Positions 2 to 29,106 of a stretch of DNA of 29,492 nucleotides are shown here, in pieces. A model generated the notes under the pieces. That model was not told where the DNA came from and did not search any database. It was given only the letters and a program-made list of their open reading frames with translations. The position numbers and the translations under genes were made by a program. Position 1 is the first letter of the stretch. Every line of letters begins with the position of its first letter. Source of the DNA: a bacterium (GTDB lineage Bacteria > SZUA-182 > DTGQ01 > JAFGSM01); NCBI GenBank assembly GCA_049472355.1, contig JBLIRP010000048.1:1-29492 (forward strand). The letters are read 5' to 3'.

Positions 2-763
2 ATTTACGGCACCACCGGTTATCCGCTCAGCTATCCCCTCGGGAGCATCTTCAGCGGATACTCTTCGTATAATCGGGGGTTGGGACTGTATGGAGGGCTC
101 TATGGCGGAGGGCTCTACGGAGGAATGTATGGCGGCCTGTATGGAGGATCGCTTTACGGTGGGCTGTATGGTGGATTGTACGGAGGCCTCTACGGCGGCG
201 GACTGTATGGTGGACTTGGTGGGCTGTACGGTGGATTGTATGGTGGATTATACGGCGGCCTCGGAGGGCTGTACGGCGGATTGTATGGCGGTGGCCTTTA
301 TGGAATGGGAAGCCTCCTCGGTATGGGCGGTCTAGGGCTCTATGGAGGGCTCCTTGGCGGAATCGGCCTGGGAGGTCTTGGCGGCGCCGTCAATCCACTC
401 TTTCTTGCCGCACAGGTAGGGACCTGGACAGGCACCTGGACCAACTTCGTGACCAGTGGACTGATGACCCTGAATATCGCCGAAGACCCGCTCACCGGAG
501 GGCTCTACGGCTATGCACAGCTTCTGGGTAACTTTTACCTGGACGCCCTGGTCGAGGTCACCGGCACGGTGTTGAACAGCCAGATATTCGTGGAAGGAAG
601 CGGAACCGGACTGGGCAACCAGAACTTCACGGTTGAACTGATCGGCACGCTCATCACCACATCCTCCATGACCGGCATCTACAACATGATCAACAACAGC
701 AGCGGCGGCACCATCACCGAACAGGGTACCTTCAAACTGGACCTGATCACACCGGTTATCTAA
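2..763 (+). CDS. Gly/Leu/Tyr-rich (GGLY-repeat) protein with a C-terminal beta-rich domain; 5'-truncated by the window edge
   Basis: The frame is open from position 2 (IYGTTGYPLSYPLGSIFSGYSSYNRG...), so the TTG at 80 is probably not the true start. About 17 [L/M]YG units are followed by a ~115-aa domain starting QVGTWTGTW. A terminator-like hairpin follows the stop. Confidence 0.8.
   Translation: MYGTTGYPLSYPLGSIFSGYSSYNRGLGLYGGLYGGGLYGGMYGGLYGGSLYGGLYGGLYGGLYGGGLYGGLGGLYGGLYGGLYGGLGGLYGGLYGGGLYGMGSLLGMGGLGLYGGLLGGIGLGGLGGAVNPLFLAAQVGTWTGTWTNFVTSGLMTLNIAEDPLTGGLYGYAQLLGNFYLDALVEVTGTVLNSQIFVEGSGTGLGNQNFTVELIGTLITTSSMTGIYNMINNSSGGTITEQGTFKLDLITPVI
83..385 (+). repeat. Coding low-complexity GGLY tandem repeat
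   Basis: (GG[G/S]?LY)n at protein level, with heavily varied synonymous codons (gga/ggg/ggc/ggt, ctc/ctg/ttg/tta, tat/tac). Confidence 0.9.
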
Positions 764-9597: not shown

Positions 9598-10104
9598 TCA
9601 GCCTCCTCTCATTGCGGACAATATTGCGGAAATGACCTCCTCGTGGTTTTTGCCGCTGCAGTCGACATCAATCTCTGCATATCTCCGGTAGAGGGGGACC
9701 CTTTCATTGTATAACTCGCTCAGGCATTGGCCTGGTCTGCGCACAACTCCTCGATTCGCAAAGTTCTTCAACCGCTTCTCAATCAAGTCGAGAGAAAGAT
9801 CGAGATGGATGATGGTCCCGCTCGAGCCCAGATGTTCCATTGCCCTCCTGCTGTAGACGACGCTCCCTCCGGTGGCGATGACGGTTTTCGTGCAGGCAAG
9901 TGACAGCACCGTACGTTCCTCGATGCAAAGGAATGCCTCCAGTCCCTTACTATCAATGATCTCCTGAAGGCTTCGGCCTTCCTGCACCTGGATGAGCACA
10001 TCGGTATCAATGAAACGCATCGACATTACCTTTGCAAGGATAACACCGATGGTGCTCTTGCCTGAGCCCGGCATCCCGATAAGGACGATATTCCCTTCAC
10101 TCAT
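9598..10104 (-). CDS. aroK: Shikimate kinase
   Basis: NIVLIGMPGSGKSTIG P-loop, FIDTD, VIATGGSVV and ER-PLY motifs. Confidence 0.92.
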   Translation of the reverse strand: MSEGNIVLIGMPGSGKSTIGVILAKVMSMRFIDTDVLIQVQEGRSLQEIIDSKGLEAFLCIEERTVLSLACTKTVIATGGSVVYSRRAMEHLGSSGTIIHLDLSLDLIEKRLKNFANRGVVRRPGQCLSELYNERVPLYRRYAEIDVDCSGKNHEEVISAILSAMRGG

Positions 10105-10261
10105 TGCGTCCGGCACGGCTGCGACCTTTCGTATTGAAGAAGCTGAAATAGGTCTGCAAGCAGGGGATGTCACCACGCTGTGACATGCCCACACTCGTTG
10201 ATCTACACAGTCTATTTCAATTGATCGGCGTTGAGTTACACTTTACGCTAACTTCTTTCCC

Positions 10262-10959: not shown

Positions 10960-11739
10960 TCAAATAAGACCCGCCACAATGGGAGGCAGCGGCAACACGA
11001 CAGGCACAAAGGGAACCACTGCCGGGGCCACCGTGGTTACCACCGGAGCAGCCACGACCGTAGGTGCTGCAGGGGCCACCGGCGTCACTGCGGGAGCAAC
11101 CACAGGGGCAACTGCAGGGGCCACAACAGGGGCTGCTCCGGGGGCGATAAAGCTTCCGGTGAACACATAATTGGCCGGTACAAGTTCACCTGCGGTAAGG
11201 AGATTGGGGTAAATCCCATAAAGGGATTGATATGCCTGGTTAACAACGGGCAGCATGATATTGAGCCATTGAGCGGGATCGAAACTGATAAGATTTGCGT
11301 AATTGGCCGGCAATGGTATGGGTGCCGGAGTAATGGCGGTAGCGGCGAGCTGCAGCAGGGAGGGGGGGGGCCATACCCTGAAGGAATACGCGGGATTCAC
11401 AATGCCCTGGGCCGGGTCGAAATAGATCAATTCATTGAGCCCGCCGCCCACGGGAACATAGTTGTACAGAAGATGAAAAAAGGGCAGACGCGGGTCCCAC
11501 ACGAGCGCCGGCTGTACCGGCAGGAAGGTGGTTTTCGTGATCTCCGAAACCAGCGGGATGGGCAGTCCGGTGACGGGGTCCGGCGGGGATAACACGGGTG
11601 ACCACAGGGGCCACAGCACATTATAAGGCGGCAATGATTGCCATAACTGAGCAGAACAGGTATCAGGAACAATCCAGAGGGCGACAATTATAAGTAAACT
11701 GCATAAAATCACCATATATTCAATATATTTTGCCTTCAT
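10960..11739 (-). CDS. Secreted Pro-rich protein with an Ala/Pro/Val low-complexity C-terminal tail
   Basis: GGAGA RBS before ATG 11739. The signal peptide ends CSA, followed by QLWQSLPPYNVLWPLWSP. The tail is AAPVVAPAVAPVV... It has its own consensus promoter. Confidence 0.85.
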   Translation of the reverse strand: MKAKYIEYMVILCSLLIIVALWIVPDTCSAQLWQSLPPYNVLWPLWSPVLSPPDPVTGLPIPLVSEITKTTFLPVQPALVWDPRLPFFHLLYNYVPVGGGLNELIYFDPAQGIVNPAYSFRVWPPPSLLQLAATAITPAPIPLPANYANLISFDPAQWLNIMLPVVNQAYQSLYGIYPNLLTAGELVPANYVFTGSFIAPGAAPVVAPAVAPVVAPAVTPVAPAAPTVVAAPVVTTVAPAVVPFVPVVLPLPPIVAGLI

Positions 11740-11911
11740 GGTCTTCTCGTCTCCACGGTATGACAATAAGCTTTTTTATATTATGGGCCTCTTCCAATTG
11801 AATACAATCCTCTTTTCCCTCCCTCTTCTAAAGTTACGTGTATACTCAGCGGGTGTCTTGGAAATGGGAAATTCATGGTGTGGCCTTGAAGCAATTTCGA
11901 GATCTATCAAA

Positions 11912-11974
11912 AGAATAGCAAAAACATGAGGCCCTGTCAAAATAAGCCATCATGGTTGTCAAGCCATCATGGTT
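11912..11974 (-). promoter_or_regulatory. Sigma70 promoter for the 10960-11739 gene with a tandem operator-like repeat
   Basis: Minus strand TTGACA(11940-11935)-N17-TATTCT(11917-11912) with extended -10 TGn. AAGCCATCATGGTT occurs twice, at 11944-11957 and 11961-11974. Confidence 0.7.
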
Positions 11975-11986
11975 TCTAAGAAAAAG

Positions 11987-14900
11987 CTATGACCTGAAAT
12001 CGATGATCAGAATGACGCGTGCCGCATTAGGATCCTCGTCGATTTGGGTACTGCCCTGATGGGGATGGTGGCATAAGAGGCATGCATCATCCTGGTCCTG
12101 GAAATGGGCATCGATATGGCAGTCGTTGCAGAAGTCCTCGCGTTTGCCCGGATACCCGGCGTTCCCGCCGCTGCTGCGCAGGTAGGCGTCTCCCTGCTGG
12201 AGGTGCGGGTTGTGACAGGAGCCGCAGTAGAAGCCGTCATGGGGATCGGGTTGGGGCTTCGGTCCTGTGGGGATGACATCGTGATCGGATGAATCGCGGG
12301 GGAAGGTGTTGGGATCGTAGTAGGCCACACCCTCGATATCCGCCCAGTTTCGCATCACATGGTCCTCCAGGTAATCGCCCGGTATCTCTCCTCCGGGGAG
12401 GGCCTTTTTGAAGACCGACTCCGCGCCGGTCTTGGCGATGCCCGCGAGGTTGTGGCAGGTGAAGCAGAGCTGGCGGAAGCCCTGGAAGGGGCCGGCCCCG
12501 TAACCGGGCCGTGACCAGAGCTTTGGTCCGACTGCGCCGTGAGGGGTATGGCAGGCATTGCAGATCCCCCATTCGCTCCCGGAGAGTCCACCGCCTCCAT
12601 GGTCCCCTGAAGGGAAGTCGTATTCGGTCTCACCGAATGGATGGCAGGCCTTGCACAGCTCACTTCCAGGGCTGTGGGTGCCGCGCACGACGAAATTATC
12701 CTTGACCAGGAGGTAGCCATGGTCTTGATAAAGATCCGTACCGTTCTCTCCCTGCCATGAGGTTACCGCGGCATGGGTGTTGTGACAGGTGGTGCAGACC
12801 ATAGCGCCATATTCACCTTGAAGCGATCGACCGGTATTGGGATCGTAGGGATAGGTAATTCCCCCGGGCTTCCCGCTCCCTCCTTGGGAAAAGAGGGGGA
12901 GGGCATCGTTATAGGTATCCACGAAACTCGGCGCAGTGGGCGCACCTTGAATCGGATCAGGATTTGGGCCTCTGCCAATGGGATGGCTGCGGGATACAAA
13001 TATCCCATCCTTGTTGTGACACGCTTCACATAATCCATCAGGCTGATAGGCGGAGGGGTGGTTCCCCAGATAGGGTGGGGTGTGGTTGTCGTGCACATCA
13101 TGACAGGTGCCGCAATACATATGACCAGACTGCGTACCATAATCGTCGGTTATAACGAGATCCGTACCGTCTGAAACGAAAAACCCCTCGCCGATCATTC
13201 CCGGGTCGGCGTTCAAGCCGAAGGGGTGGGTAAAATGGACACATGGATTGAGGAGTGAGCCTGCATCGCCGATGCTACCAACCATATCCTGTTTTCCGTG
13301 ACAGCCGAAGCATAGATCCTCGTAGTCGCACGCATCGGTGTCATCCTCTTTATCTCCCCATGAAAGGTTGAAAGAGGGCTCCCTCATGAGGGCATCGACA
13401 TCCGGACGTATGCCAATATCCGGTATGGGGTCGGTCTGGCGTTCTTCGCCATCATGCATGAAATGACAGAACATGCAGCCACCCCTTCCGTTCGGAGACT
13501 CGTCAGCGGAAATCAGATGCCTTCCCCTGAGGGTAGAGGTCACCTTGTCAGTATGACAGGTGATGCAGAAATCGGGCTTATCCCTCTCATCTCCTTCATT
13601 CAATGCCCATCGCAGAAACGAGTTGGCCAGGCTTCTTGCCTCTGCATCCGGTCCGGAAAAGGGTCCGGAGCCATGCTGACCGTCATGGCAGGAGGTACAG
13701 GTCAGTTGCCCATTTTTATTGAGCAACTCGAGCGGTGTGCCCGGCGCCCTCACAAACATGCCGCTGACGACCTTTGTCGAATCATGAATACTCGCTTGGG
13801 TTCCCATGGGATGGTGTTCCTTCCTGACAAGAAACTCATCCCCCGATATGGAAGGTCTTCCTTCCCTCCGTGCATCCCGCTCATTATGACATCCGTAGCA
13901 TAATTGTGATGGACATTGTTCATTGGGATCATCCGTTATTTCGGGCACATTCGGGAGTGCAACCAGGGAGGGATACGGCTCCGTATCCGGAAGGATTCCG
14001 CTATGAGGTGAATGGCACGTTATGCAGCTTTCATTGGTGCCGGTGTGTGGGCTGGAATGGCAGTCCTCACAGGCCCCCCGATCCAGCGCCCTTACCAGGA
14101 GCCTTCCATGGTCAAGGAGATCGTCTCCATCGGCTCCCCCATCCCAGTTTGTTTGTGCCGTATGGACACTGTGGCAGGTTTGGCAAACCACGCTACCCTC
14201 TGCCGAGTCGAATGATATATCCCCATCGGTCAGGCCCCCTATTCCCCCGCTGTAGCCACTGTAATACAAGACAGGGACGCCTCCTTCCAGTGCCTTATCC
14301 AATGAATGATTCTGGGTGCCAAGATTCTCGTGCTGTGCAGTATGGCAGCTATAGCACAATAGTGATCCATAATTGTCAACGCGAAGATATGCTGATCGGT
14401 GTTCCCTGTAATCCTCCTGAATCTCCGGTGAGAACTGATTCTTGCGATGGACATCATGACAGCTCCCGCACCAAATCCTCCCCTGTTCAATACCATAATC
14501 GTTTATCACGCCTGTTCCCTTTCCATCCGAGATGCCGGGCATATTTTGGAGGGTCGCTGAAGGGAGTGCATTAAATCGGTGCGAAAAGAATCCATCCCTG
14601 ATGTTATCCAGGAGCAATGCATTTTCTTCGTTTGACGTCGATTCCTCCCCCACGATATCCGGTCTGGAATGGCATCCATAGCAGGCGTCCTCATAGTCCC
14701 TGGCGTCCGTATCGAGTATGGTATCGGACCAGGCCATGTTAGCCGGTGACACGCGCATGATAACGTCGACCGAGACCGACGAGTTACGCTGAGTCGCCTC
14801 TTCTTCACGGGTCTGATACAGGGCATCGGGATCACCCGGGGAATTGTGAATGGAATGGCAAAAGAGGCATTGATTATAAGGGGCAATCTTGTTGTGCCCT

Positions 14901-17900
14901 TCTCCGCGCGGTCCCAAGTCGGCGCATTGCTTGTCTGAATGGCATGCCGTACAAAAAGTTCCTGCATTGGCTGGATCGAATTCCGTAACAATGCGGGGAT
15001 TCAGGTAATGATCATTGGTCCCATCATGCACGGTATGACACGAGGAACAGTACAATTCCCCGGCAGGTGACAAGGGCCCCGCCGGTGTAGGTTGATGTCC
15101 CAAGGTCGAGGCATTTGCTCCCAGCCCCATCGGGTGGTGCTCCAAAGGATAGGATACATCGTCACCAGCCAACGGCGCGCCGATTGCGCCGGGAAATCCC
15201 GATCCCTTTCTGTGGCATCCGTAGCAGGCTGCAGCATATTCCGAGGAATCGGAGAAACCCGGGCAATTCGGTATCGCGGTGAATTGTATATGCGGCGTAA
15301 TGAGGATTGAAGAACCCATTTCTAATGCATTGTGGGGATGGTGGCACTCGAAGCACCCATGCACAGCCCCGTGACCATGGGCATCCCCTGAGACGAGGCC
15401 TTGATGGCACTGTGCACAGAAGGTGTATTCCTTATCCGAGGCATTTTCAATCAATCCGGGTGCCCTCTGCCTCAGGTAATCCCCGCCGCCTTTATCATCA
15501 ACAGGTGCATAGGGATTGCAGTGAGGGTCATGGCAGGAACCGCACGAGAATCCATCTCCTCCTTCGGTTTCCTTGAGCGGAAAAGGGGACCAATCGTTTC
15601 TCGTGACACTCCCGCCATTGATGAATGCGCTGCTGCCCATTACGTGATCATGGGTTATATCGCCCTCTGCCTCAAAAATCCCGAACCGATCCTTCGCCCC
15701 GTAGAGGCCGGTCCTGTGACAGAAGGCACAGAGTCGCTTGGTGCCGGTGAATGGGCCGGTTGTCGTGCGCGCCCATATCCTTTCATCAGCAGCATGATGG
15801 GGCATGTGACACGCATCACAGGGATTCGAAGAGAGAATGTGCGGGCCGTTCAGACAGACTTTATGACATGCGAAACAGAGTGCATTCTGAATATTGCTGC
15901 GTCTCAGGTAAAAAGAGGGATAGATGCTTCCCCTGGATTCCGTCATCTGAGAAACTGTGTCATCATCTCGTAATCGCATATACGCCTCACCATGTGGCTG
16001 GTGACACGTTGCACAGGTGATGGTATTGTTTGCATCCAGGTGGAGATCTTCGGGGATTTCCACCGCTTCAGAAGGCGCGATATCAACCGGATGCGAACTC
16101 CCCAGTGATTCTTCCGAATGACATGCACGACAGAGGCTTACCACATCCTCCCTGAATCGAAGGTCACGGTAGTCAGTAATCCCAAATATGGGCTCACCAA
16201 TGTGACAGTCCTGACATCGATCGGCATCATACATGAAGGCGTGGCCACCCTCCGGTATATCCCCGATCAATATGAGCCTGGCACGTCTCAATTCCTCGGA
16301 TGTCATACCTTCAACGGCTCGTGTGTCACCCCTGTGGGGATGATGACATTCCTGACAGTTTTCGCAGTCGAGGTGCGTGTTCCCTGTCTCCCAAGGGTCG
16401 TGGCACTGGGTGCAGAACCGTGTTCGATTTCCCGGCTCACCCACATCACCTGTTTTTGTCCTCAAGTAGTCACCATTCGTTTCATTTGCAGGGGGCTGCG
16501 TATGCGGATCATGACAGCTCCCGCAATAGAGGCCTGCACCACCTGTGTCCCACTCCGAAGGATGACCTGGAACGCAGTCCGTATCATTCGGATTCAGAGG
16601 AAAGGTACAGGCATCATAAGTTCCCAATGCACTATCGGCATTAGTGTCCGCAGATCCGTGCATAACGTGGGATTCAAATACAAAGCCGAAAACCGTGGCA
16701 ATGCCGGATGCCACGACTGGTGAATCGGGAGCATCGGGATTCAGCCCTTGGGTGAATGTGCCGTCATGGCAACTGTTGCACAACTGTCTCACCCCTCCGA
16801 ATTTGTTCAAAGGCCTTCTTGCCCATAGTGTTTTCCCCCTTGCTCCATGGGGGAGGTGACAATTCGCGCACACCCCCTGGGCATGCTGAATATTATGAGG
16901 TCCTGTCATTATCCGTGGATGACAATCCCGGCACATATCGCTTCCCTGATCGGTCATCCTGTTTTCCCTGACGGTCAACCGACCGTGTCCCTGATCCGCC
17001 TTTCCCGGAACCCTGCCGTCGAATGAGGTGGCGCTCGCATGAATGTTGTGACAGGTGAGGCATATGACCGTACCCTCGCCATTTTGGACGTCACCGGTAA
17101 TGCCCCCCGGCTCCCCATCTCCTCCCTGAAAGTAGAGGGCATCCCACACCGGTTCAGTTGAAGGCGGATTGGGGTCCTTATTCATCGGATGCCCAAATTG
17201 TAAGAACCTGCCCGAGCCATGATTCTCATCATGGCACTCCTCACAGAATCCATTGTCCAATGCAAGGTTTATGTCATCCTCTGCGTGATTGAGATATGGC
17301 CGGATCATTCCATTGTGCACAGTGTGACAGGTTCCACAATACATACGCCCTGCGTCCGTACCGTAATCATTTAGGGTCATAAGACCAGGGCCATCCGAAA
17401 GGGGATAGACGCCTCCCGGCTTCACCTTTAAGCGCGGCGGGCTATTGGGGTCCGGGACGCAGGTAAAGCGATGAGTAAAGTAGGCATTGGGCTGCAATAG
17501 CGATCCTTGAGAACCAAATCCGCCCACTATTGTCGGATCTCCGTGGCACCCATAGCACATGTCCTCATAGTCGTACGGATCGCTGTCTATGACACCCCTG
17601 CAGCTATCGTCAGCACCGATGTCCCCTACCACCCAAATCAGTGGGATTGCCGGCTGCCTCATGAGCGCATCCACATCAGCCCGGATCCCCTGGTCAGGCA
17701 AAAGGGTGAGCGTGGACTGGCGCTCGATGCCGTCATGGATGAAATGGCAGAACATGCAGCCGCCCCTTCCGTTGGGGGAATCATTCGGAGAGAGCCAATG
17801 TTTTCCGTCATTGTGTGATTCAGTCTTGTCCGGGTGACAGGCACCACAGAACGCGGGATCGTCCATTTTATCCGCGCCGTTGGCAAATTCCCAGCGCAGA

Positions 17901-20900
17901 TGATGGTTTGCCTTTGCCTTGTATGGGTCATCCGGATATGCCCCGGCACCGTGCATCCCGTCATGGCAGGATGTGCAGGTCACTTCCCCTGCCGGATTTG
18001 CGAAGGTGGCACCGGCAGGCATGGTTGCCCTGAGGCTCGTTACTGTGGCCTGGGTTCCCATGGGGTGATGCTCCTTACGCATTACCCCAGAATCATCTCC
18101 GTAGAGCACCGGTATGCCCATTGACGAGCCTGTCCCGGGATTGTGACATCCGTAACAGGTTCTGGACAAGGGTATATCATCATCACTGTCGTTGATTGTC
18201 GCAACATTGGGAAGTGCCCTGAAGGAAACACCCTGCCGATCGGTCCCGTCACAATCCTGATCGATGGTATCACCGGGGATATCCACGGCATCGGGATGCA
18301 CCAACGGGTCAGTGTCATCACAATCCTCAGGCCCGCACTGCGCGCCGCCAATGAAAAAACCGTCTCCGTCCGCGTCACGACACACCAGGATAGTGCCGAT
18401 GACCTGCACAGAGACATCCCTATTGGTCGCCGCAATGACCACCGTTCCGCTGGACAGGGCGGTAATCTTCCCGTCCGTGCTCACCGTGGCATTATTCGGA
18501 TCTGATGAGGAATAGGCCGTTCCGGATGAGCCCTTTGTTACATCACGCGTCGTACCGTCTGAATATCTTCCGGTCACCTTCAATTGTAACGTGCTTCCAG
18601 CCCCGGTGATGCTGAATGAAGAGGGCTCAACTACAAGCGATCGCAGTGTCGGGGAGGGCTTCGGTACCGGATGGAATGGCGGAAAATAGAGTGCCGAGGG
18701 ATAAACCTGGTTGTAGGGGAGAAAATTACCATACGGACCCGGTTGAGAAGGCCTATTGATGACGGCATTCCACATGGCGAATTGTGGTTTATACCAAGTC
18801 GATGCGAGAGAAGGATATATGTAAGATATGAATGTGGGCGTTTTGTACATTGTCTGATAGGAAGGGTACAGAAACGTCCCCAGATATGATGGCAAAGAAA
18901 ATGCTGTGGAGGACATCCCCAGTAAGGGTCCTTGAAATATGAGGGGATAGGTAAGGGGATATCGTAAGGGAAATAATCCCCAGGATTGTTGCCTGGGAAC
19001 ATTCCTCACCGTGATCCTAATGGTTTCAGAATCGAACCGTGGAGGCAGTCCATTGTCGGTAACAAAAAAGGTTATTTCACGATCCCCCGACTGGTCGAAG
19101 CCCGGTTTCCAGGAAAACTCACCTGTTTCCTGATTGAACCGGGCGCCGTATGGAAGCGGAGTGGCGGAGTAGGTCAAGAGATCACCATCAGGATCGGCGG
19201 CATGCACCGCAAAACTTAGTGATTCGCCCTCCCTCACGATCTTGTCGCCAATGAGCGCCAATACAGGATCGTTATTGGTGATGCCTATGATATCCACCAT
19301 GCCGTTGACGTGTCGATAAAAACCGGGATTTCCATCGTAGATCCCGTTATGTGGATGACACGTGGAGCAGTCCGACGAACAGAATGAATGATCCGTACCC
19401 TTGTCATCGGGTGGGGTGTGATGACAATTGTCACAGTAAATGAAATGGCCGTCCGCATCCATACAGGTGAGGGGGTCCCTGCAGAATTGTGATTGCTCCG
19501 ACCAGGTTATGTGCCCCGCGAACACCCCTTTTCCGTTGCTGTGGCAGTATAGATTCATACATGCCTTTGTGATTGCATCATATTCACCGAGGGGATTCAG
19601 AAATAAATCGAACCCGACAGGGGTATAGTTATTTAGATCGAATAGATAGTCGAGGTTTGGATCGCTATAGGGCTGACCAGAAGGGTCGATATGGCACCTG
19701 AGGCAGGGGTAATTATACCGCGCATGTGCCCTATGCGGATCCTGACCCAGATCCCCGTCAGGGAAAGGTGGAGGGGGCGTGCCGTGCCCTTTGCCGAAAA
19801 CCGTGGCAGAGAGATCGAACCCTTCAGCATCCGTGAATGTTTCGATATCGATGCGCTCGATCCCATGACATCGACAGGTGGGTGCAAATGCCTTTGAATT
19901 GAAGATCGAGAGGGGGCTTTCAAGCTCGAGCGCCGATTCCGGCTCGGGTCCCGGATCATGGACGTGGCAGGCGGTGCAGTCTGTGCCCCGGTAGTCGACG
20001 GTGCAGGTATCCGAATCCGGACACACCATCCCATCCGGGTTAAAGTAGTGCCGGGAACCGTTTGAGTGCTGAAATCCGTCAAGCCCACCCGGCCGTGACC
20101 AGAGACTCCTCGCCTTTGTCTGATGGCATACCTCGCATATATCCGTTGTTCCGGAGGGGATCGTCATGTCATTCTGCGAAGAGTCCTGTTCGCGGATGTC
20201 CTGTTTAAGCGGATCGAAAAGGTCAACCACCCAGACATCCTCATTTGGATCGGGATAGGGGCTGCCAAGTGCATACGGAGGTGGATAGGGGCTGCAGGGG
20301 GGTGACGTGAACTGGCTGAAATGGCAGTCGTTGCAAGGTTGTTTGGGGATGCTTCCGCGTATCATAAAGGCATTCGCGTTTCCCTGCTTGTCGCCCGAGC
20401 CGTGCGGATCATGGCAGACAACGCATTGTGATTGCCTCGGCGGCTGTACCGGCCTTTCGCGTCCGATCGATGGGCTTTTATATACGAAATGGGAGTATTT
20501 CGTGGGGTGACATTCCCTGCATTCCCGCCATTGGTGATGGGGAGAGGCGCTCACCTCATTCGGATCCCCCCATCGTTCATCGCGGTAATCGATGGTGTCG
20601 AGATGTCCGTTATACTTCCCTAAGGGTATTCCGTGAGGGTATTCAAATGACCCGGCGCATATCTTCCTTTTTGTCGTTTCATTCGACCAGTGACATTCCC
20701 AGCAGAAATTCTTCTTACCGTCATTCGGGTCAAGGTCCTCATCATGAAGGGTACAATCCATATCCATGGAAATCCCGCTGCTATTCATGGCACCCCTGTT
20801 CGGGTATCCTCCATGCAATGTCTTTGGGGAAGGATACCCCGTATCAAGGGTAGCCCCTGCATAGTAGTTCTCAGCCTTGACCCCGTGGCCGTTCTTTGAC

Positions 20901-21760
20901 CAGTAATTTTGACCGGAGACCTTATCCGGATCGGGAGCCACGATCTCGCACTCATCATAGATCCAGTCGTGATAAAAATGGGTATGATCGCGGTCAAAGA
21001 TAACGGCAGGATCATTTGATGAATAACGACTTTTGTATGACGAGTATCTCCCGCCATGCTCGGATGAATCGTCATGACATTGCAGGCACGTCACCGACCC
21101 GGGATCGCCCCAGTTAAGGACCTTCAGGGAGGAGGGGTCCCCCAGTGACGAGTCCATAATAGCAGCAGTGGACCCGAAGGGATAAAACCCTCCATGACAA
21201 TCGACGCACACCAGCGTCTGTGACAGCCTTTGGCCGCCTTTAAAATATATATAGCCATCCGAGGGGTGGAGGGTGTTGGGATCATCCTGTTGATACCGGG
21301 ACGGATCATGGCAATCGAAACACCAGCGTCCGAGGCCAAAGGGCTGATAGACGAGATGGCTCAGGTGGCCCCTTTTTCTTTGTGAATAGACACTACTGTC
21401 CGTGAAGTTTTCCGAATGAACAAGGCCCTGGAACCGTTCATTGGGCTCAAACGCCAAGGTGGAATAATCAAGAGGGTAGGGGAGCCCGTTGGGATCGGTA
21501 AAGCAGCAACAGTTTGGGTGTTCAGGGTACTCAGGATCCGGGGCGAGGTCGGGATACATATCCTTGTGACAGCGCCAGCATCCCTCATCGATCAGCGGAG
21601 AGGTAAGGATCGCGCGGATATCGTTATATTTAATGTACGCCCCTGTGGTCTCCAATGGAGGGGGTTGGGCGTAAGGCAAGGAAAAGGCGAGGAGATCAAG
21701 ACATATGATCAGGACAAACAAAAAAATACTGCATGTGAGAGGTATTTTTTTGTTTTGCAT
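11987..21760 (-). CDS. Giant secreted multiheme c-type cytochrome (~60-62 hemes) with Ig-like, Big_2 and MopE-like domains
   Basis: 3257 aa with a Sec-type signal peptide (..LPYA|Q). Manual count gives 60 CxxCH plus CMNLYCH and CRCH, and many CxxCHxxH and HP[MVI] distal-ligand motifs. The non-heme insert lies at about 18238-19276. Confidence 0.95.
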   Translation of the reverse strand: MQNKKIPLTCSIFLFVLIICLDLLAFSLPYAQPPPLETTGAYIKYNDIRAILTSPLIDEGCWRCHKDMYPDLAPDPEYPEHPNCCCFTDPNGLPYPLDYSTLAFEPNERFQGLVHSENFTDSSVYSQRKRGHLSHLVYQPFGLGRWCFDCHDPSRYQQDDPNTLHPSDGYIYFKGGQRLSQTLVCVDCHGGFYPFGSTAAIMDSSLGDPSSLKVLNWGDPGSVTCLQCHDDSSEHGGRYSSYKSRYSSNDPAVIFDRDHTHFYHDWIYDECEIVAPDPDKVSGQNYWSKNGHGVKAENYYAGATLDTGYPSPKTLHGGYPNRGAMNSSGISMDMDCTLHDEDLDPNDGKKNFCWECHWSNETTKRKICAGSFEYPHGIPLGKYNGHLDTIDYRDERWGDPNEVSASPHHQWRECRECHPTKYSHFVYKSPSIGRERPVQPPRQSQCVVCHDPHGSGDKQGNANAFMIRGSIPKQPCNDCHFSQFTSPPCSPYPPPYALGSPYPDPNEDVWVVDLFDPLKQDIREQDSSQNDMTIPSGTTDICEVCHQTKARSLWSRPGGLDGFQHSNGSRHYFNPDGMVCPDSDTCTVDYRGTDCTACHVHDPGPEPESALELESPLSIFNSKAFAPTCRCHGIERIDIETFTDAEGFDLSATVFGKGHGTPPPPFPDGDLGQDPHRAHARYNYPCLRCHIDPSGQPYSDPNLDYLFDLNNYTPVGFDLFLNPLGEYDAITKACMNLYCHSNGKGVFAGHITWSEQSQFCRDPLTCMDADGHFIYCDNCHHTPPDDKGTDHSFCSSDCSTCHPHNGIYDGNPGFYRHVNGMVDIIGITNNDPVLALIGDKIVREGESLSFAVHAADPDGDLLTYSATPLPYGARFNQETGEFSWKPGFDQSGDREITFFVTDNGLPPRFDSETIRITVRNVPRQQSWGLFPLRYPLTYPLIFQGPLLGMSSTAFSLPSYLGTFLYPSYQTMYKTPTFISYIYPSLASTWYKPQFAMWNAVINRPSQPGPYGNFLPYNQVYPSALYFPPFHPVPKPSPTLRSLVVEPSSFSITGAGSTLQLKVTGRYSDGTTRDVTKGSSGTAYSSSDPNNATVSTDGKITALSSGTVVIAATNRDVSVQVIGTILVCRDADGDGFFIGGAQCGPEDCDDTDPLVHPDAVDIPGDTIDQDCDGTDRQGVSFRALPNVATINDSDDDIPLSRTCYGCHNPGTGSSMGIPVLYGDDSGVMRKEHHPMGTQATVTSLRATMPAGATFANPAGEVTCTSCHDGMHGAGAYPDDPYKAKANHHLRWEFANGADKMDDPAFCGACHPDKTESHNDGKHWLSPNDSPNGRGGCMFCHFIHDGIERQSTLTLLPDQGIRADVDALMRQPAIPLIWVVGDIGADDSCRGVIDSDPYDYEDMCYGCHGDPTIVGGFGSQGSLLQPNAYFTHRFTCVPDPNSPPRLKVKPGGVYPLSDGPGLMTLNDYGTDAGRMYCGTCHTVHNGMIRPYLNHAEDDINLALDNGFCEECHDENHGSGRFLQFGHPMNKDPNPPSTEPVWDALYFQGGDGEPGGITGDVQNGEGTVICLTCHNIHASATSFDGRVPGKADQGHGRLTVRENRMTDQGSDMCRDCHPRIMTGPHNIQHAQGVCANCHLPHGARGKTLWARRPLNKFGGVRQLCNSCHDGTFTQGLNPDAPDSPVVASGIATVFGFVFESHVMHGSADTNADSALGTYDACTFPLNPNDTDCVPGHPSEWDTGGAGLYCGSCHDPHTQPPANETNGDYLRTKTGDVGEPGNRTRFCTQCHDPWETGNTHLDCENCQECHHPHRGDTRAVEGMTSEELRRARLILIGDIPEGGHAFMYDADRCQDCHIGEPIFGITDYRDLRFREDVVSLCRACHSEESLGSSHPVDIAPSEAVEIPEDLHLDANNTITCATCHQPHGEAYMRLRDDDTVSQMTESRGSIYPSFYLRRSNIQNALCFACHKVCLNGPHILSSNPCDACHMPHHAADERIWARTTTGPFTGTKRLCAFCHRTGLYGAKDRFGIFEAEGDITHDHVMGSSAFINGGSVTRNDWSPFPLKETEGGDGFSCGSCHDPHCNPYAPVDDKGGGDYLRQRAPGLIENASDKEYTFCAQCHQGLVSGDAHGHGAVHGCFECHHPHNALEMGSSILITPHIQFTAIPNCPGFSDSSEYAAACYGCHRKGSGFPGAIGAPLAGDDVSYPLEHHPMGLGANASTLGHQPTPAGPLSPAGELYCSSCHTVHDGTNDHYLNPRIVTEFDPANAGTFCTACHSDKQCADLGPRGEGHNKIAPYNQCLFCHSIHNSPGDPDALYQTREEEATQRNSSVSVDVIMRVSPANMAWSDTILDTDARDYEDACYGCHSRPDIVGEESTSNEENALLLDNIRDGFFSHRFNALPSATLQNMPGISDGKGTGVINDYGIEQGRIWCGSCHDVHRKNQFSPEIQEDYREHRSAYLRVDNYGSLLCYSCHTAQHENLGTQNHSLDKALEGGVPVLYYSGYSGGIGGLTDGDISFDSAEGSVVCQTCHSVHTAQTNWDGGADGDDLLDHGRLLVRALDRGACEDCHSSPHTGTNESCITCHSPHSGILPDTEPYPSLVALPNVPEITDDPNEQCPSQLCYGCHNERDARREGRPSISGDEFLVRKEHHPMGTQASIHDSTKVVSGMFVRAPGTPLELLNKNGQLTCTSCHDGQHGSGPFSGPDAEARSLANSFLRWALNEGDERDKPDFCITCHTDKVTSTLRGRHLISADESPNGRGGCMFCHFMHDGEERQTDPIPDIGIRPDVDALMREPSFNLSWGDKEDDTDACDYEDLCFGCHGKQDMVGSIGDAGSLLNPCVHFTHPFGLNADPGMIGEGFFVSDGTDLVITDDYGTQSGHMYCGTCHDVHDNHTPPYLGNHPSAYQPDGLCEACHNKDGIFVSRSHPIGRGPNPDPIQGAPTAPSFVDTYNDALPLFSQGGSGKPGGITYPYDPNTGRSLQGEYGAMVCTTCHNTHAAVTSWQGENGTDLYQDHGYLLVKDNFVVRGTHSPGSELCKACHPFGETEYDFPSGDHGGGGLSGSEWGICNACHTPHGAVGPKLWSRPGYGAGPFQGFRQLCFTCHNLAGIAKTGAESVFKKALPGGEIPGDYLEDHVMRNWADIEGVAYYDPNTFPRDSSDHDVIPTGPKPQPDPHDGFYCGSCHNPHLQQGDAYLRSSGGNAGYPGKREDFCNDCHIDAHFQDQDDACLLCHHPHQGSTQIDEDPNAARVILIIDFRS

Positions 21761-21801
21761 AAAAGGGGTAGTGATGAGATAAATGCGTTAAATGATTTTT
21801 A

Positions 21802-21830
21802 CTTATATATGAATGCATTCCTGTTGTCAA
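21802..21830 (-). promoter_or_regulatory. Candidate sigma70 promoter of the giant cytochrome
   Basis: Minus strand TTGACA(21830-21825)-N17-TATAAG(21807-21802), with the palindrome GAATGCATTC inside the spacer. Confidence 0.55.
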
Positions 21831-21965
21831 TAAGATTTCGGGATGCATGAACAGTCAAATGGATGCATGGAGTATTGTCCCTGTGCATGAGAAGCCGTAT
21901 GGCGGGGTACATTCAATCAAGCATCAAGATAGCACAATATTAAGACCGCATGGAGGAAGGGGCGA

Positions 21966-23564
21966 TCATGGCACGGAGATCCCCCGCCGATCGAGGAGGG
22001 AGCCTTCCAGGCGGTAGAGATCGATGAGCGCGGTGAGAAATCCCACGATGGCCTGAATCTCGGCGATCCTGCTTGCCACCAGGTCTCTCTGGGTCTGGGC
22101 GACGAGCAGGGAGGTGGATTTCCCCACCCTGAACTTCTCGGTTTCGGCCCGCATCTTCTCTTCCTGCAGGGCGCGGGTGGCTGCGGTGGCGGAGACCTGC
22201 TCCCGTGTCCGGTTGACCTCGATATAGGCCGAGCGGACATCCAGTTGAACGAGCTGTTCGAGGTTCCTCACCGACTCGTCCGCCTGTGAGCTGGAAAGGA
22301 CCGCCCGTTCATGCCGCGCCTTTGCATCCCGATTGAAGAAGGGGTATTCGAGGCTGATGCCCGCCCCGACATCGTAGTTCCTTCCGTCGAGGTCCTCGAT
22401 CGATCCGCTGAAGGAATCGGCATACCCTGACATGCCGAGGGTTATGAAGAAATCCATCCTCGGGAGGAGTCCGTTCCTGGTCTTGACCACCTCGAGGTCT
22501 CCCCGCTCCTGCTGCATCCGCGCCTGGTTCACGTCGGATCGCATGCGCAATCCCACATCCACGTGTGCGTCGACCCCGTCAAGACTGACCTCGGGCACGG
22601 CAGGCTGGTCCTGAAGTACAATCTCCCGGTCCCAGAGACCGGACCCGGACGGGTTGAGGAGACGAAGGAGCCGCAACCGGACCTTTGCCAACTCGCTCCT
22701 GGCATTGATGAGGTCCTCCTTGCGCAGCGCCACCTCCGCCTGAGCGGCTGCATACTCGATTTCCGGAAGCACCCCGATCCTGATCCGCTCCTCGGTCTCC
22801 TTCATCTGGTGTTCGGCCAGGCTCAGGGACTCGGTGAAGATCTCGATCCTTCGCAGGCTGAGCGCATACTCCCAGTAGGTCTTTTCCACGTCCGCGATAA
22901 ACGACTCCACGAATCCCCTGAACTCGTGCCGGGATGAAAACGTATCGATCCTCGCCTGCCTGAGGCTCGCCAGGTTCACCTTCCTACCGGCCCCCCTCAG
23001 CAGGGATTGGCTGAGATTCAAACCCGCCCGGGTGGTGTGCTGATCACCGTACAGATCCGACCAGGCTCGATCATTGGATAGCTCGACTCCGGCCCGGGTG
23101 CCGGTGGAAAACAGCTTTGAGACCTCGACACCTGCGTCTGAACCGCGCGTCTGCTCATCACCGGCCTCCTGGTGGGAATACGACGCATCACCCGAGAGCA
23201 CGGGATCAAAGGAGGCCGCCTCCTGGTCCTCGAACGTGCGACGAATGGCGGGATTCAGCCGCTCAATGGCCAGGGCGTGATTGTTTTTGAGTGCGGTGAG
23301 AAGCGCATCCCCGATGCCGATGGCGAGCGTATGTGGGTCCGAGGGTTCCTGTTCCTCTGTCGAATTGCCGGGTTTTGGGGAAGGGGAGGGGGGAATTGCC
23401 AGAGACTCATCAGAGGCGTTCATCCCGTCCCTGCTTGCCGCGATGAGGACTGCACCACGACCGGCTGCACTTGCACCTGCGCAGGGTATCAGTGCCAACA
23501 GGCTAATAAGGGCGATCCCGCACCCAAGCCTTATCAATACGTTGTGTTGTTTCGGCACCATCAT
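21966..23564 (-). CDS. TolC family outer membrane efflux protein
   Basis: The ATG at 23564 overlaps the RND stop (ATGA) after GGAGG, followed by a signal peptide. Motifs: ALKNNHAL, LSQSLLRG, VEKTYWEY, LLPRMD, VRSAY, EKFRVGKSTSLLVAQ. The longer ORF call to 23924 is an overlap artefact. Confidence 0.92.
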   Translation of the reverse strand: MMVPKQHNVLIRLGCGIALISLLALIPCAGASAAGRGAVLIAASRDGMNASDESLAIPPSPSPKPGNSTEEQEPSDPHTLAIGIGDALLTALKNNHALAIERLNPAIRRTFEDQEAASFDPVLSGDASYSHQEAGDEQTRGSDAGVEVSKLFSTGTRAGVELSNDRAWSDLYGDQHTTRAGLNLSQSLLRGAGRKVNLASLRQARIDTFSSRHEFRGFVESFIADVEKTYWEYALSLRRIEIFTESLSLAEHQMKETEERIRIGVLPEIEYAAAQAEVALRKEDLINARSELAKVRLRLLRLLNPSGSGLWDREIVLQDQPAVPEVSLDGVDAHVDVGLRMRSDVNQARMQQERGDLEVVKTRNGLLPRMDFFITLGMSGYADSFSGSIEDLDGRNYDVGAGISLEYPFFNRDAKARHERAVLSSSQADESVRNLEQLVQLDVRSAYIEVNRTREQVSATAATRALQEEKMRAETEKFRVGKSTSLLVAQTQRDLVASRIAEIQAIVGFLTALIDLYRLEGSLLDRRGISVP

Positions 23565-27867: not shown

Positions 27868-28311
27868 AAACGCTCCTGCAACTTCCTTATATGCATCCTT
27901 ATATACTTAATATACTTACACGTCGAAATATGCGTCGAACGAAATGCCCCGACAAACGGTCATATTGTAGTGGTATTTTTTCCAATACGCAAGAAATTTA
28001 TGATTTATTTCCCCTTTGGGGCACCGCTCAATAAATGTCTGCATTTTTTTGCTCATTTTTCTAATTATAGTTATTATTTTTCACTATATGCATTTTTTTT
28101 CACCTGTTTCGATTGCCCATCGGTTTCTTTACGGTGCATTCGCAAGTATTAATCATTTTTAAACAGCTAATTAGCACATCTTGTATCGGGTGTTGAACAG
28201 GGTAGGGGGCATCAAGATATGGAATAAATTATGCTTAAATATTGTAAACCGAAATTACATTATGTTTCAACAATTCATTATGTGCCGCCATTACACGGGG
28301 GGAGGTTCCTA

Positions 28312-29106
28312 ATGCTCGCACGCAACCTGCACCATGCAATGCCTTACAGTATAGTCACCACCGTTCTCATGACACTGTTGCTTACCGTGACCGCACCGGG
28401 AACCGGAACGGCCCAATTTTTTGGTTTTTCAAACTCTTTTTATCCTCAATCCTACTTAAGCCCGTTCCAAAGCTCGTTCCAGAGCTCGTTCCAGAGCCCA
28501 TTCCAGAGCCAATGGCAAAGCCCGTGGCAAAGCTCGTGGCAAAGTCCTTTCCAGAGTCAATGGCAGAGCCCGTTCCAGAGTCAATGGCAAAGCCCATGGC
28601 AAAGCTCGTGGCAGACTTCGTGGCAGAGCCCATTTCAGAGCCCATGGCAGAGTTCATGGCAGAGCCAGTGGCAAAGCCCGTTTCAGAGCCCATGGCAAAG
28701 TCCCTATCAGAACCCTTACCAGAATCCATACCAGAATCCATACCAGAATCCCTGGCAACAGCAGCTTCAATATCAGGATGCGGATGTGGACCTGGACTCG
28801 GGTGACGACGAAACAACAATCACTGTTGATGAGGGTGACACCATCAGCATCGTGCTCGAGTCGAACGTAACCACAGGGTATCAATGGGTGCTCGATACCG
28901 GCGAACTCAATACCGATGTGGTTTCCAAAACGAGCAATCAGTACTTCCCCGGAAACACCACAGGCTTCATAGTAGGGGCAGGCGGGTTTGAGCAATGGAT
29001 CTTCGAGGCCGAGGGTGCCGACACCACTACAATTAAGCTTGATTACAAACGAACCTGGGAAACGACCGTGCAGGATACCTTCGAGGTAACGGTCATCGTT
29101 AAATAG
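28312..29106 (+). CDS. Secreted protein: Gln/Ser/Pro/aromatic tetrapeptide repeats plus a C-terminal chagasin-family (I42) cysteine protease inhibitor domain
   Basis: GGAGG RBS before ATG 28312 and a signal peptide ending GTA|Q. I42 loop motifs LESNVTTGYQW, VGAGG and YKRTWE. Confidence 0.88.
   Translation: MLARNLHHAMPYSIVTTVLMTLLLTVTAPGTGTAQFFGFSNSFYPQSYLSPFQSSFQSSFQSPFQSQWQSPWQSSWQSPFQSQWQSPFQSQWQSPWQSSWQTSWQSPFQSPWQSSWQSQWQSPFQSPWQSPYQNPYQNPYQNPYQNPWQQQLQYQDADVDLDSGDDETTITVDEGDTISIVLESNVTTGYQWVLDTGELNTDVVSKTSNQYFPGNTTGFIVGAGGFEQWIFEAEGADTTTIKLDYKRTWETTVQDTFEVTVIVK
28468..28755 (+). repeat. 24 x 12-bp coding tandem repeat, Q-[S/T/N]-[P/S/Q]-[F/W/Y]
   Basis: QSSF QSSF QSPF QSQW QSPW ... QNPY QNPY QNPY QNPW, uninterrupted over 288 nt. 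Confidence 0.95.

What the first reader, a model, noticed from the sequence alone, without database searches (positions are those of the whole stretch)
11987..21760. Single-chain ~60-heme cytochrome with adhesin-type domains: candidate covalent molecular wire
Seen: a signal peptide, 60 CxxCH motifs plus 2 atypical ones, and no obvious C-terminal TM or lipobox. Ig-like, Big_2 and MopE-like domains split a 13-15-heme N-terminal block from a 47-heme C-terminal block. Known: CxxCH binds heme c, CxxCHxxH and HP motifs supply bis-His ligation as in doubled-CXXCH electron-transfer cytochromes, and characterised nanowires (OmcS, OmcE, OmcZ) polymerise from 4-8-heme subunits. Inference: one polypeptide encodes a pre-assembled conduit, tens of nm long if extended, for extracellular or interspecies electron transfer or charge storage.
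Basis: partly seen in the sequence, partly recalled or inferred. Interest (0 to 1): 0.9.

Follow-up and report, generated by a model that had tools for sequence, protein, structure and literature searches.

The report
Giant cytochrome of fused nanowire units
An uncultured sediment bacterium has one gene for a secreted protein with about 62 heme sites, most of them in a string of units related to the building block of a known bacterial electrical nanowire; proteins this large are known, but this one suggests how they are built.

Summary
The 3,257-aa ORF is real. It has 60 CxxCH motifs plus two conserved atypical ones, a signal peptide and Ig/MopE domains. It is not one continuous 60-heme wire: a 15-heme N-block and a 47-heme C-block are separated by 404 aa without a heme motif. 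The C-block is a chain of tetraheme units whose closest solved relatives by sequence are two OmcE nanowire subunits (E about 1e-11). A confident model of one 14-heme module aligns only to the wire proteins MtrA, OmcS and OmcE, at modest Z. That module is a building block across this uncultured order (14-, 21-, 24-, 26-, 28-, 49-heme proteins). This gene is a mosaic of three paralog lineages, under purifying selection, at a site that is empty in two congeners. Independent contigs bridge all module junctions but one. Histidine counts fit all-bis-His ligation, with three complementary open ends that could allow head-to-tail docking (untested). It is no size record: 63- to 86-heme proteins and the wire idea are in print, and relatives have 69 and 74. 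The scan noted other giant cytochromes on other DNA, but no sequence look-alike. Verdict: new variant of a known kind.

The parts
11987..21760 (-). Giant multiheme c-type cytochrome gene, 3,257 aa, 60 CxxCH + 2 atypical motifs; about 352 kDa apo, about 390 kDa with 62 hemes
21665..21760 (-). Sec-type signal peptide (aa 1-32; cleavage site judged by eye)
   Evidence: hydropathy
19286..21664 (-). N-block, aa 33-825: 13 CxxCH + CxCH + CxxxxCH (both atypical motifs in 10 of 10 aligned homologs), 15 conserved distal His; fold unknown; found only in this lineage, where it heads or ends 25- to 74-heme proteins
19049..19273 (-). Ig-like domain (He_PIG / Big_9), aa 830-904
18626..18985 (-). Uncharged Tyr/Pro/Phe/Ser-rich low-complexity segment, aa 926-1045; similar windows in 34 ORFs of the genome
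18392..18601 (-). Big_2 Ig-like domain, aa 1054-1123
18239..18388 (-). MopE-like Cys/Asp-rich putative metal-binding repeat, aa 1125-1174; copies occur in other proteins of the genome
16253..18229 (-). Circularly permuted 14-heme module (B1-B9 then A1-A5; hemes 14-27), closest to the 28-heme paralog; starts without the His expected before heme 14 and ends on an unpaired heme 27
15857..16252 (-). Single tetraheme unit (hemes 28-31), 59% identical to a stand-alone small cytochrome on contig C1
14036..15853 (-). Complete 14-heme module A1-B9 (hemes 32-45), closest to the 24-heme paralog; AlphaFold2 pLDDT 80.1, pTM 0.82
12626..14035 (-). 10-heme unit A5'-B9 (hemes 46-55), closest to the 49-heme paralog
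11990..12625 (-). Terminal A1-A5 unit (hemes 56-60); the chain stops after an unpaired heme at the same break point as heme 27
12101..12724 (-). Probable gene-conversion tract: 86-96% DNA identity to the 49-heme paralog over about 12093-12692, against 63-75% over the paralog-aligned region from about 12693 to 13960
11946..21969 (.). Lineage-specific 10-kb segment holding only this gene; replaced by about 100 bp in congener G001, and absent between the same flanks in G003

Best explanation
A secreted, probably extracellular electron-conduit cytochrome with two heme arms. Its 47-heme C-block is a covalent string of OmcE-related tetraheme and diheme units: in one chain it has the links that OmcE filaments make between subunits. 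If extended it would carry electrons over roughly 40 nm (38-47 nm at 8-10 A per heme). The 15-heme N-block is a separate redox domain that may contact a partner. The Ig, Tyr/Pro-rich, Big_2 and MopE spacer tethers or positions the two arms. Shown: motif counts, modular architecture, sequence kinship to OmcE, His:heme stoichiometry, mosaic origin, purifying selection, maturation genes. Modelled: one 14-heme module folds confidently and aligns with linear wire proteins. Inferred: secretion beyond the periplasm, full heme loading, continuity across module joints, tethering, and a role in extracellular or interspecies electron transfer.
For: A profile of the protein's own 9 tetraheme units finds G. 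sulfurreducens OmcE (7TFS, E 1.3e-11) and D. soudanensis OmcE (9YUQ, E 1.5e-11) over the whole unit, then OmcS (1.1e-8) and 6R2Q_A (2.7e-6) (same two top hits). The 14-heme model (pLDDT 80.1, pTM 0.82) has Z>=2 with only 3 of 48,161 chains: MtrA (Z 6.1, rmsd 6.8, 241 aligned, model 36-491), OmcS (Z 4.7, rmsd 4.7) and OmcE (Z 4.3, rmsd 3.3). Motifs alternate almost strictly, giving 47 distal-His candidates for 47 hemes; the N-block has 15 conserved His for 15 sites; there is no CxxCK. Synonymous sites are near saturation against paralogs (pS 0.75-0.81, dN 0.24-0.32), and dN/dS is about 0.085 in the conversion tract. The host is a diderm (LpxC) with CcsA and ResB, 5 secretin matches and 44 ORFs with >=2 CxxCH. 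Paralog clusters carry NHL propeller genes, as omcE clusters carry beta-propellers (PMC13712944, section 8).
Against: Fold Z-scores are below 8 and the Foldseek OmcE match is E 0.024, so they may reflect a common heme arrangement; MtrA, not a filament, scores highest. Only 14 of 62 heme sites were modelled with confidence, without hemes, and I could not inspect coordinates. The N-block model failed (pLDDT 27.6). 404 aa without a heme motif break the chain, and the heme 27/28 joint is irregular. No full-length ortholog was found (best cover 25%; 30 relatives), and the site is empty in G001 (97% complete) and G003, so the gene is dispensable for close kin. No porin or redox partner gene is adjacent.
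Confidence: 0.55

Rival explanations
1. Polymerising macro-monomer or branch node. The C-terminal unpaired heme 60 and spare His3219 dock onto the start of another chain's C-block (unsatisfied heme 14, spare His1270) by a reciprocal His-heme swap. A second socket at heme 27/His1796 would allow branching or docking of family members. The product would be a long or branched wire decorated with N-block and adhesion domains.
For: The start and the end of the C-block are the two halves of one repeat unit, broken at the same point; the same break bounds permuted modules in L048, L049 and P0033, and 4 of 4 permuted modules keep both spare His. The donor His of the first heme is present in 29 of 29 examined 14-, 21-, 24-, 28- and 49-heme proteins and in 0 of 10 26-heme proteins, as expected if it is kept only where a partner exists. 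OmcS and OmcE polymerise through a His from the next subunit (PMC9473688, PMC7096707, PMC13712944).
Against: The ligand register is borrowed by analogy from OmcS, and the identity of its donor His is recalled. In-chain counts also balance at each end, so spare His could fold back. MopE and Big_2 sit directly before heme 14 and may block docking. L049 has a His within 45 residues upstream of its first heme. The proteins counted are kin and not independent.
Confidence: 0.15
2. Electron store (capacitor): the protein mainly holds about 60 electrons near the cell surface or in the periplasm and has no directional long-range role.
For: Stand-alone gene with no porin or oxidoreductase neighbour. Heme number varies freely among relatives (14-74). 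Storage is offered as a possible role for an 86-heme protein (PMC12133095, passage).
Against: The closest solved relatives are wires. Ig and MopE domains are not needed for storage. Storage and conduction are not exclusive.
Confidence: 0.12
3. Polyprotein precursor: a protease cuts in the Tyr/Pro-rich or Ig spacer and releases a 15-heme and a 47-heme cytochrome, as Ig domains are lost from OmcZ.
For: The OmcZ filament lacks the C-terminal Ig domains of its precursor (PMC9473688, passage). A subtilase gene lies beside the 74-heme relative in L051. Both blocks occur apart and in either order in relatives.
Against: No protease gene lies beside this gene; the I42 inhibitor-domain gene lies 6.5 kb away. 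Of the nine N-block loci, I noted a subtilase beside only one, and I did not scan all neighbours.
Confidence: 0.08
4. Silent or accidental mosaic, or an assembly chimera of paralogs.
For: No full-length ortholog. The heme 27/28 junction is not bridged by any listed contig piece.
Against: 9.8 kb open frame with all motifs intact; purifying selection. The longest exact match to the rest of the genome is 66 nt, and no match of 21 nt or more lies near the unbridged junction. Independent contigs with 0-4 mismatches bridge the other junctions, and 12 runs hold half or more of the sampled words.
Confidence: 0.05
5. Terminal redox enzyme: the unpaired hemes (14, 27, 60) are five-coordinate catalytic or mineral-contact sites fed by the wire.
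For: Open ends in the His bookkeeping. A five-coordinate terminal heme was proposed as a possible catalytic site for OmcS (PMC7096707, passage).
Against: No CxxCK; total His equals total hemes in both blocks. Nitrite reductases rank below OmcE in profile searches.
Confidence: 0.05

Closest known systems
OmcE tetraheme nanowire subunits (G. sulfurreducens 7TFS; D. soudanensis 9YUQ)
   Same: Best sequence match to the repeat unit, with the four CxxCH motifs aligned in order and the His that follow motifs 1-3 matching; weak fold match to one unit; paralog clusters carry beta-propeller genes.
   Different: OmcE is a roughly 200-aa subunit that polymerises. Here nine full tetraheme units plus partial ones are joined in one chain, with an unrelated 15-heme block and Ig domains. 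No propeller or barrel gene lies at this locus.
MtrA/DmsE decaheme cytochromes (6R2Q_A; TIGR03508)
   Same: Single-chain linear heme wire of doubled-CXXCH units; top structural match, spanning ten consecutive hemes of the model.
   Different: TIGR03508 score 77.5 against a cut-off of 192.2; no MtrB found in the genome; six times as many hemes and 44 aa per heme in the C-block.
Giant multiheme cytochromes: PCC3 extracellular cytochromes (63 and 85 hemes), D. soudanensis 69, T. ferriacetica 58, D. acetexigens 86 (expressed)
   Same: Single polypeptides with 58-86 motifs; for PCC3, repeat units and a proposed molecular-wire role (PMC5566968, PMC7096707, PMC12133095; passages).
   Different: This gene is not in a porin/inner-membrane-protein cluster. 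Sequence homology to those proteins was not tested. The passages read do not tie their repeats to OmcE.
26-heme/16-heme/PPIase/propeller operon of SEEP-SRB and Desulfuromonadales (PMC5539420)
   Same: Paralog clusters in this genome have like gene content: PPIase + 26-heme on C67; PPIase + 25-heme + 16-heme + propeller on C80.
   Different: Applies to paralogs, not to this stand-alone gene; homology was not tested; no dsrA above cut-off was found in this 87.5%-complete genome.
OmcZ precursor
   Same: Signal peptide, multiheme domain and tandem Ig domains in one chain (PMC9473688, passage).
   Different: No sequence match to OmcZ among the listed hits; Foldseek E 7.8; here the Ig domains lie between two heme blocks.

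Membership tests
Doubled-CXXCH multiheme cytochromes (PF09699) | Pfam score above the gathering cut-off | tested here: met
   108.9 bits against 20.6
c-type multiheme cytochrome | Export signal, CxxCH motifs and a maturation system in the genome | tested here: met
   (CcsA and ResB adjacent on contig C76)
OmcE nanowire family | Tetraheme motif and distal-His pattern homologous to OmcE | tested here: met
   repeat-unit profile hits 7TFS and 9YUQ first, over the whole unit
OmcE nanowire family | Single tetraheme subunit of about 200 aa | tested here: not met
   3,257-aa concatemer
OmcE nanowire family | OmcE fold | tested here: inconclusive
   Z 4.3, rmsd 3.3, 131 aligned; Foldseek E 0.024
OmcE nanowire family | Gene cluster with beta-propeller lipoproteins and a large beta-barrel | tested here: not met
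   flanks are an RND pump and a small secreted protein; propellers occur only in paralog clusters
OmcE nanowire family | Polymerises through inter-subunit His-heme bonds and conducts | not testable with these tools
   needs cryo-EM and conductivity measurements; the complex prediction could not be run
MtrA/DmsE decaheme | TIGR03508 cut-off and ten hemes | tested here: not met
   77.5 against 192.2 bits
MtrA/DmsE decaheme | Adjacent MtrB porin | tested here: not met
   none adjacent; PF11854 not found in G000, 87.5% complete
PCC3 conduit | Cluster of porin, two large cytochromes and an inner-membrane protein | tested here: not met
   stand-alone gene
PCC3 conduit | Sequence homology to the PCC3 cytochromes | not tested
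   no named PCC3 sequence was fetched
GSu CxxxxCH/CxxCH giant cytochromes (TIGR01904) | Repeated CxxxxCH...CxxCH domains above cut-off | tested here: not met
   one stretch at aa 725-759, 17.4 against 27 bits
NrfA/octaheme nitrite reductase-type enzymes | CxxCK catalytic heme motif | tested here: not met
   0 CxxCK

The most novel reading that the evidence does not exclude
This uncultured order builds its nanowires from a kit of 14-heme OmcE-derived modules: open-ended subunits (14/24/28 hemes), capped ends (21/49 hemes) and closed pieces (26 hemes). The 62-heme protein is a permuted macro-monomer with one plug and two sockets that joins head-to-tail or branches the network by reciprocal His-heme swaps, while its Ig and Tyr/Pro-rich spacer anchors it. 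That would be a genetically encoded branch or anchor node for cytochrome nanowires, bearing directly on the open question of how such filaments start and end.
Probability: 0.15. Interest if true: 0.88.

Novelty: new variant of a known kind. Interest (0 to 1): 0.6.

Why it matters
Reviews state that it is unclear why cells encode single chains with 60-86 hemes (PMC7096707, passage), and that nanowire initiation, termination and anchoring are unresolved (PMC13712944, discussion). This family offers a graded natural series of one OmcE-related module (14, 24, 28, 49 and 60 hemes), in open, capped and permuted forms. Covalent versus polymerised wiring can therefore be compared directly by expressing the small members. 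It also marks an unnamed, roughly 20-genome phylum (Wood-Ljungdahl ACS and NiFe hydrogenases found, no dsrA above cut-off in this genome) as a likely electroactive group; the runs that hold this gene are labelled mangrove, marine sediment and estuary. The heme count alone is not remarkable.

Tried and rejected
Single-sequence PDB searches with the first C-block module and with the N-block gave nothing significant (best E 0.042 and 0.15), and the N-block profile gave one hit at E 0.18. The N-block AlphaFold2 model from 10 sequences failed (pLDDT 27.6) and was not used for fold search. ESM Atlas gave only generic multiheme clusters with low recognition values, so leads only. Alignment A4 was not folded: its short rows aligned to the wrong repeat. 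The complex prediction of the C-terminal unit with the start of the C-block could not be run because the queue stayed full, so there is no result for or against docking. No RNA holder was listed. Bin 16013-16513 had no depth in any of the 4 laid runs (59-76% of each run read); a hole proves nothing. One contig joint 13117>17733 had a 23-letter side and links repeat copies, so it was not taken as a rearrangement. The promoter/terminator scans gave counts near those of the shuffles. Internal tandem duplication as the origin was rejected: the three B modules group with three different paralog lineages, and forcing them together was rejected (p-AU 1e-45; test run after I had seen the tree). A size record was rejected. 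The original OmcE paper was not held, so its ligand list was not read. No supplements were read; they may list these proteins or describe the repeats of published giants.
Full report
1. Observation. The ORF at 11987-21760(-) encodes 3,257 aa with no internal stop. It holds 60 CxxCH motifs against a mean of 0.4 (maximum 3) in 200 shuffles, one CxCH (aa 629), one CxxxxCH (aa 734) and no CxxCK. The only strong hydrophobic segment is N-terminal. Pfam finds Paired_CXXCH_1 (108.9 bits), He_PIG, Big_2 and Cu-binding_MopE above cut-off. Heme 13 is at aa 798 and heme 14 at aa 1202, so 404 residues without a heme motif separate the blocks.

2. Is the gene real? 18 public DNA runs from 6 studies were listed; 12 hold half or more of the sampled words. 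Contigs of 4 runs from 4 studies were laid on the region (residue ranges). Listed pieces with 0-4 mismatches cover aa 1-1124 in one 3,532-bp piece, then 1126-1238, 1231-1344, 1335-1646, 1951-2241, 2008-2470, 2497-2890, 2881-3076 and the stop codon. These bridge every module junction except the one between hemes 27 and 28. No piece spans the whole gene, and 180 pieces were not shown. The longest exact match to the rest of the genome is 66 nt, inside a probable gene-conversion tract, and no match of 21 nt or more lies near the unbridged junction. Against paralogs, synonymous sites are near saturation (pS 0.75-0.81) while dN is 0.24-0.32; in the tract dN is 0.023 and dS 0.27. An assembly chimera or a dead gene is unlikely.

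3. Host. The genome has 3.49 Mb in 148 contigs and is 87.5% complete. It has 44 ORFs with two or more CxxCH (436 motifs; a few two-motif ORFs are probably chance), including 49-, 28-, 26-, 25- and 24-heme proteins. It has adjacent CcsA and ResB, LpxC, acetyl-CoA synthase, NiFe hydrogenases and five secretin matches. No dsrA above cut-off and no MtrB were found. Its phylum holds 20 genomes in this collection; close relatives are titled 'bacterium' or, in two cases, 'Pseudomonadota bacterium'.

4. Architecture. Typing each heme with local profiles shows a 14-heme module, which I label A1-A5, B1-B9. It occurs alone (14 hemes), doubled (28), tripled with a 7-heme cap (49), single with a cap (21, 26), or extended (24). 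It was found in 13 of 20 phylum genomes, 12 of the 13 in the order. The C-block reads B1-B9, A1-A5, one tetraheme unit, A1-B9, A5'-B9, A1-A5. Its parts match different paralogs: the 28-heme (58-62%), a small cytochrome (59%), the 24-heme (53% by BLAST over aa 1970-3042) and the 49-heme (68%). In trees of 44 rows the three B modules and the three A modules group with three separate paralog lineages (the A tree was the quick method). Forcing the B modules together is rejected (p-AU 1e-45, run after seeing the tree). The N-block occurs in 5 of 20 class genomes, heading or ending proteins of 25-74 hemes; in two congeners the two kinds of block are fused in the reverse order. No full-length relative was found: 14 hits among 6,964 candidates, the best non-self covering 25%. 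In congener G001 (97% complete, flanks 85-92% identical) the 10-kb segment is replaced by about 100 bp, and G003 also lacks it between the same flanks. The gene is a stand-alone, lineage-specific mosaic, in line with 'grafting and pruning' of heme modules (PMC9250108, passages).

5. What the repeat is. A profile built only from the protein's own nine tetraheme units finds OmcE of G. sulfurreducens (7TFS, E 1.3e-11) and of D. soudanensis (9YUQ, E 1.5e-11) over the full unit, then OmcS (1.1e-8) and 6R2Q_A (2.7e-6), among 177,635 sequences. Two other profiles gave the same two top hits; single-sequence searches did not. AlphaFold2 on aa 1970-2575 with 71 sequences gave pLDDT 80.1 and pTM 0.82. 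Of 48,161 representative chains only three reach Z 2: MtrA of the Mtr complex (Z 6.1, rmsd 6.8, 241 residues, across ten consecutive hemes), OmcS (4.7) and OmcE (4.3, one unit). All three are linear heme wires, but the scores are below the tool's level for a confident match and Foldseek gives OmcE only E 0.024. The related doubled-CXXCH repeat is widespread: 1,493 representatives at E<=0.001, many of them 14-48-heme tandem arrays. The N-block could not be modelled and has no solved relative.

6. Ligation. In the C-block, motifs followed by a His three or four residues later alternate with motifs followed by a more distant His. The one exception is heme 28. This gives 47 distal candidates for 47 hemes (my selection from the listed His). 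The N-block has 15 His conserved in at least 9 of 10 homologs for 15 sites, and both atypical motifs are in 10 of 10. All-bis-His ligation fits, with no need for a catalytic site.

7. Open ends. In OmcS, heme 5 is ligated by a His of the next subunit (PMC7096707, PMC12203936, passages); that this is the His following motif 1 is recalled. OmcE likewise has an unsatisfied heme at its interface (PMC13712944, discussion; PMC9473688, passages). Applying that register, the C-block starts with an unsatisfied heme 14 and a spare His1270, and hemes 27 and 60 are unsatisfied beside spare His1796 and His3219. Start and end are the two halves of one unit, broken at the same point, which also bounds the permuted modules of L048, L049 and P0033; 4 of 4 permuted modules keep both spare His. 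Among hand-picked complete proteins from the fetched loci, the first-heme donor His is present in 12 of 12 14-mers, 7 of 7 24/28-mers and 10 of 10 21/49-mers, but 0 of 10 26-mers. These are kin, some nearly identical, so the counts are not independent. The pattern fits a kit of open, capped and closed pieces. It is inference: spare His could also fold back within the chain, and the docking prediction could not be run.

8. Mechanism. Most likely (0.55) the protein is exported by Sec, matured by the CcsA/ResB system, secreted and held at the surface or in the matrix. There its C-block works as a pre-linked wire of about 40 nm if extended. That figure uses 8-10 A per heme: the upper value from MtrA, about 100 A for ten hemes (PMC5566968, passage), the lower from a recalled OmcE rise. 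The N-block is a second, separately wired redox domain. Rivals: polymerising or branching macro-monomer (0.15), electron store (0.12), processed polyprotein (0.08), silent mosaic or chimera (0.05), terminal enzyme (0.05). The direction of electron flow and the partner are unknown.

9. Known systems. It works like OmcE/OmcS/MtrA wires but is not a member of those families: subunit size, cut-offs and gene context fail (membership table). Giant single-chain cytochromes are in print: 63 and 85 hemes in PCC3 clusters, already read as repeat-built molecular wires (PMC5566968, passages); 58, 69 and 86 (PMC7096707, passage); an expressed 86-heme protein (PMC12133095, passages); up to 116 loosely defined motifs in peat metagenomes (10.64898/2026.05.27.727921, passages). 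Paralog clusters resemble in gene content the 26/16-heme operon of SEEP-SRB (PMC5539420, passages; PMC10553843, passages read for context). Searches returned no title or opening abstract text describing covalent concatemers of OmcE-like units or this family. The library lacks most subscription papers, the original OmcE paper was not held, and no supplements were read. Of PMC13712944 I read the abstract, sections 8, 9 and 12 and passages; of PMC13013709 and PMC12977616, passages only.

10. Earlier scan notes. No look-alike by sequence. 20 notes in at least 17 genomes concern other giant cytochromes (8 shown); two led me to the PCC3 paper. One note on this genome describes a possible inner-membrane conduit, which I did not test.

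11. Verdict. Observation confirmed; interpretation partly supported; new variant of a known kind; interest 0.6. The heme count is ordinary among giants. The OmcE-related modular build and the complementary open ends are what deserve follow-up.

Noticed in passing
window 10960-11766 (-): 259-aa secreted Pro/Leu-rich protein with an Ala/Pro/Val-repeat tail and no Pfam match.
   Followed up: partly
G000, 34 ORFs including window 18626-18985: Uncharged Tyr/Pro/Phe/Trp-rich stretches in 34 ORFs, most with signal-like N-termini by eye; possibly a lineage-wide matrix or anchoring tag.
   Followed up: partly
window 12101-12724 against G000:C67: Probable recent gene conversion between this gene and the 49-heme paralog.
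   Followed up: yes
L053, L054, L058-L060, L064, L068, L069, L072, L074: All 10 examined 26-heme proteins lack the donor His after their first motif; all 29 examined 14/21/24/28/49-heme proteins have it. The 21- and 49-heme forms end in a 7-heme cap.
   Followed up: yes
L044:7062-14855, L051:6100-14529, L047:5868-12401: Relatives with the same N-block followed by a different heme repeat: 69, 74 and 53 CxxCH; a subtilase gene precedes the 74-heme gene.
   Followed up: partly
L048:7894-13185, L049:2041-7353, P0033: Permuted 14-heme module placed first, followed by the N-block (reverse order to this gene) or by a long heme-free tail.
   Followed up: yes
G000:C80 (L065, L066): Cluster of 25-, 16-, 13-, 12-, 8-, 7-, 6- and 5-heme cytochromes with a PPIase, propellers and a 553-aa possible outer-membrane barrel (C80:13948-15606; no Pfam hit, picked by a C-terminal pattern).
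   Followed up: partly
L061:5747-9721: 23-heme relative ending in a duplicated motif that looks dockerin-like (recognised from memory, not tested).
   Followed up: no
window 2-763 (+) and 28231-29106 (+): An ORF with Gly/Leu/Tyr repeats cut by the contig start, and a secreted protein with a chagasin-type I42 inhibitor domain.
   Followed up: no
window 9598-10194 (-): Shikimate-kinase-like ORF scores best, just under cut-off, with the homoserine kinase model NF040667 (186.8 against 197).
   Followed up: no
window about 21790-21830 (-): A perfect -35 hexamer lies about 65 nt upstream of the start codon, with an A/T-rich hexamer 17 nt later that the scan did not call; the downstream gene has its own promoter-like site.
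   Followed up: partly
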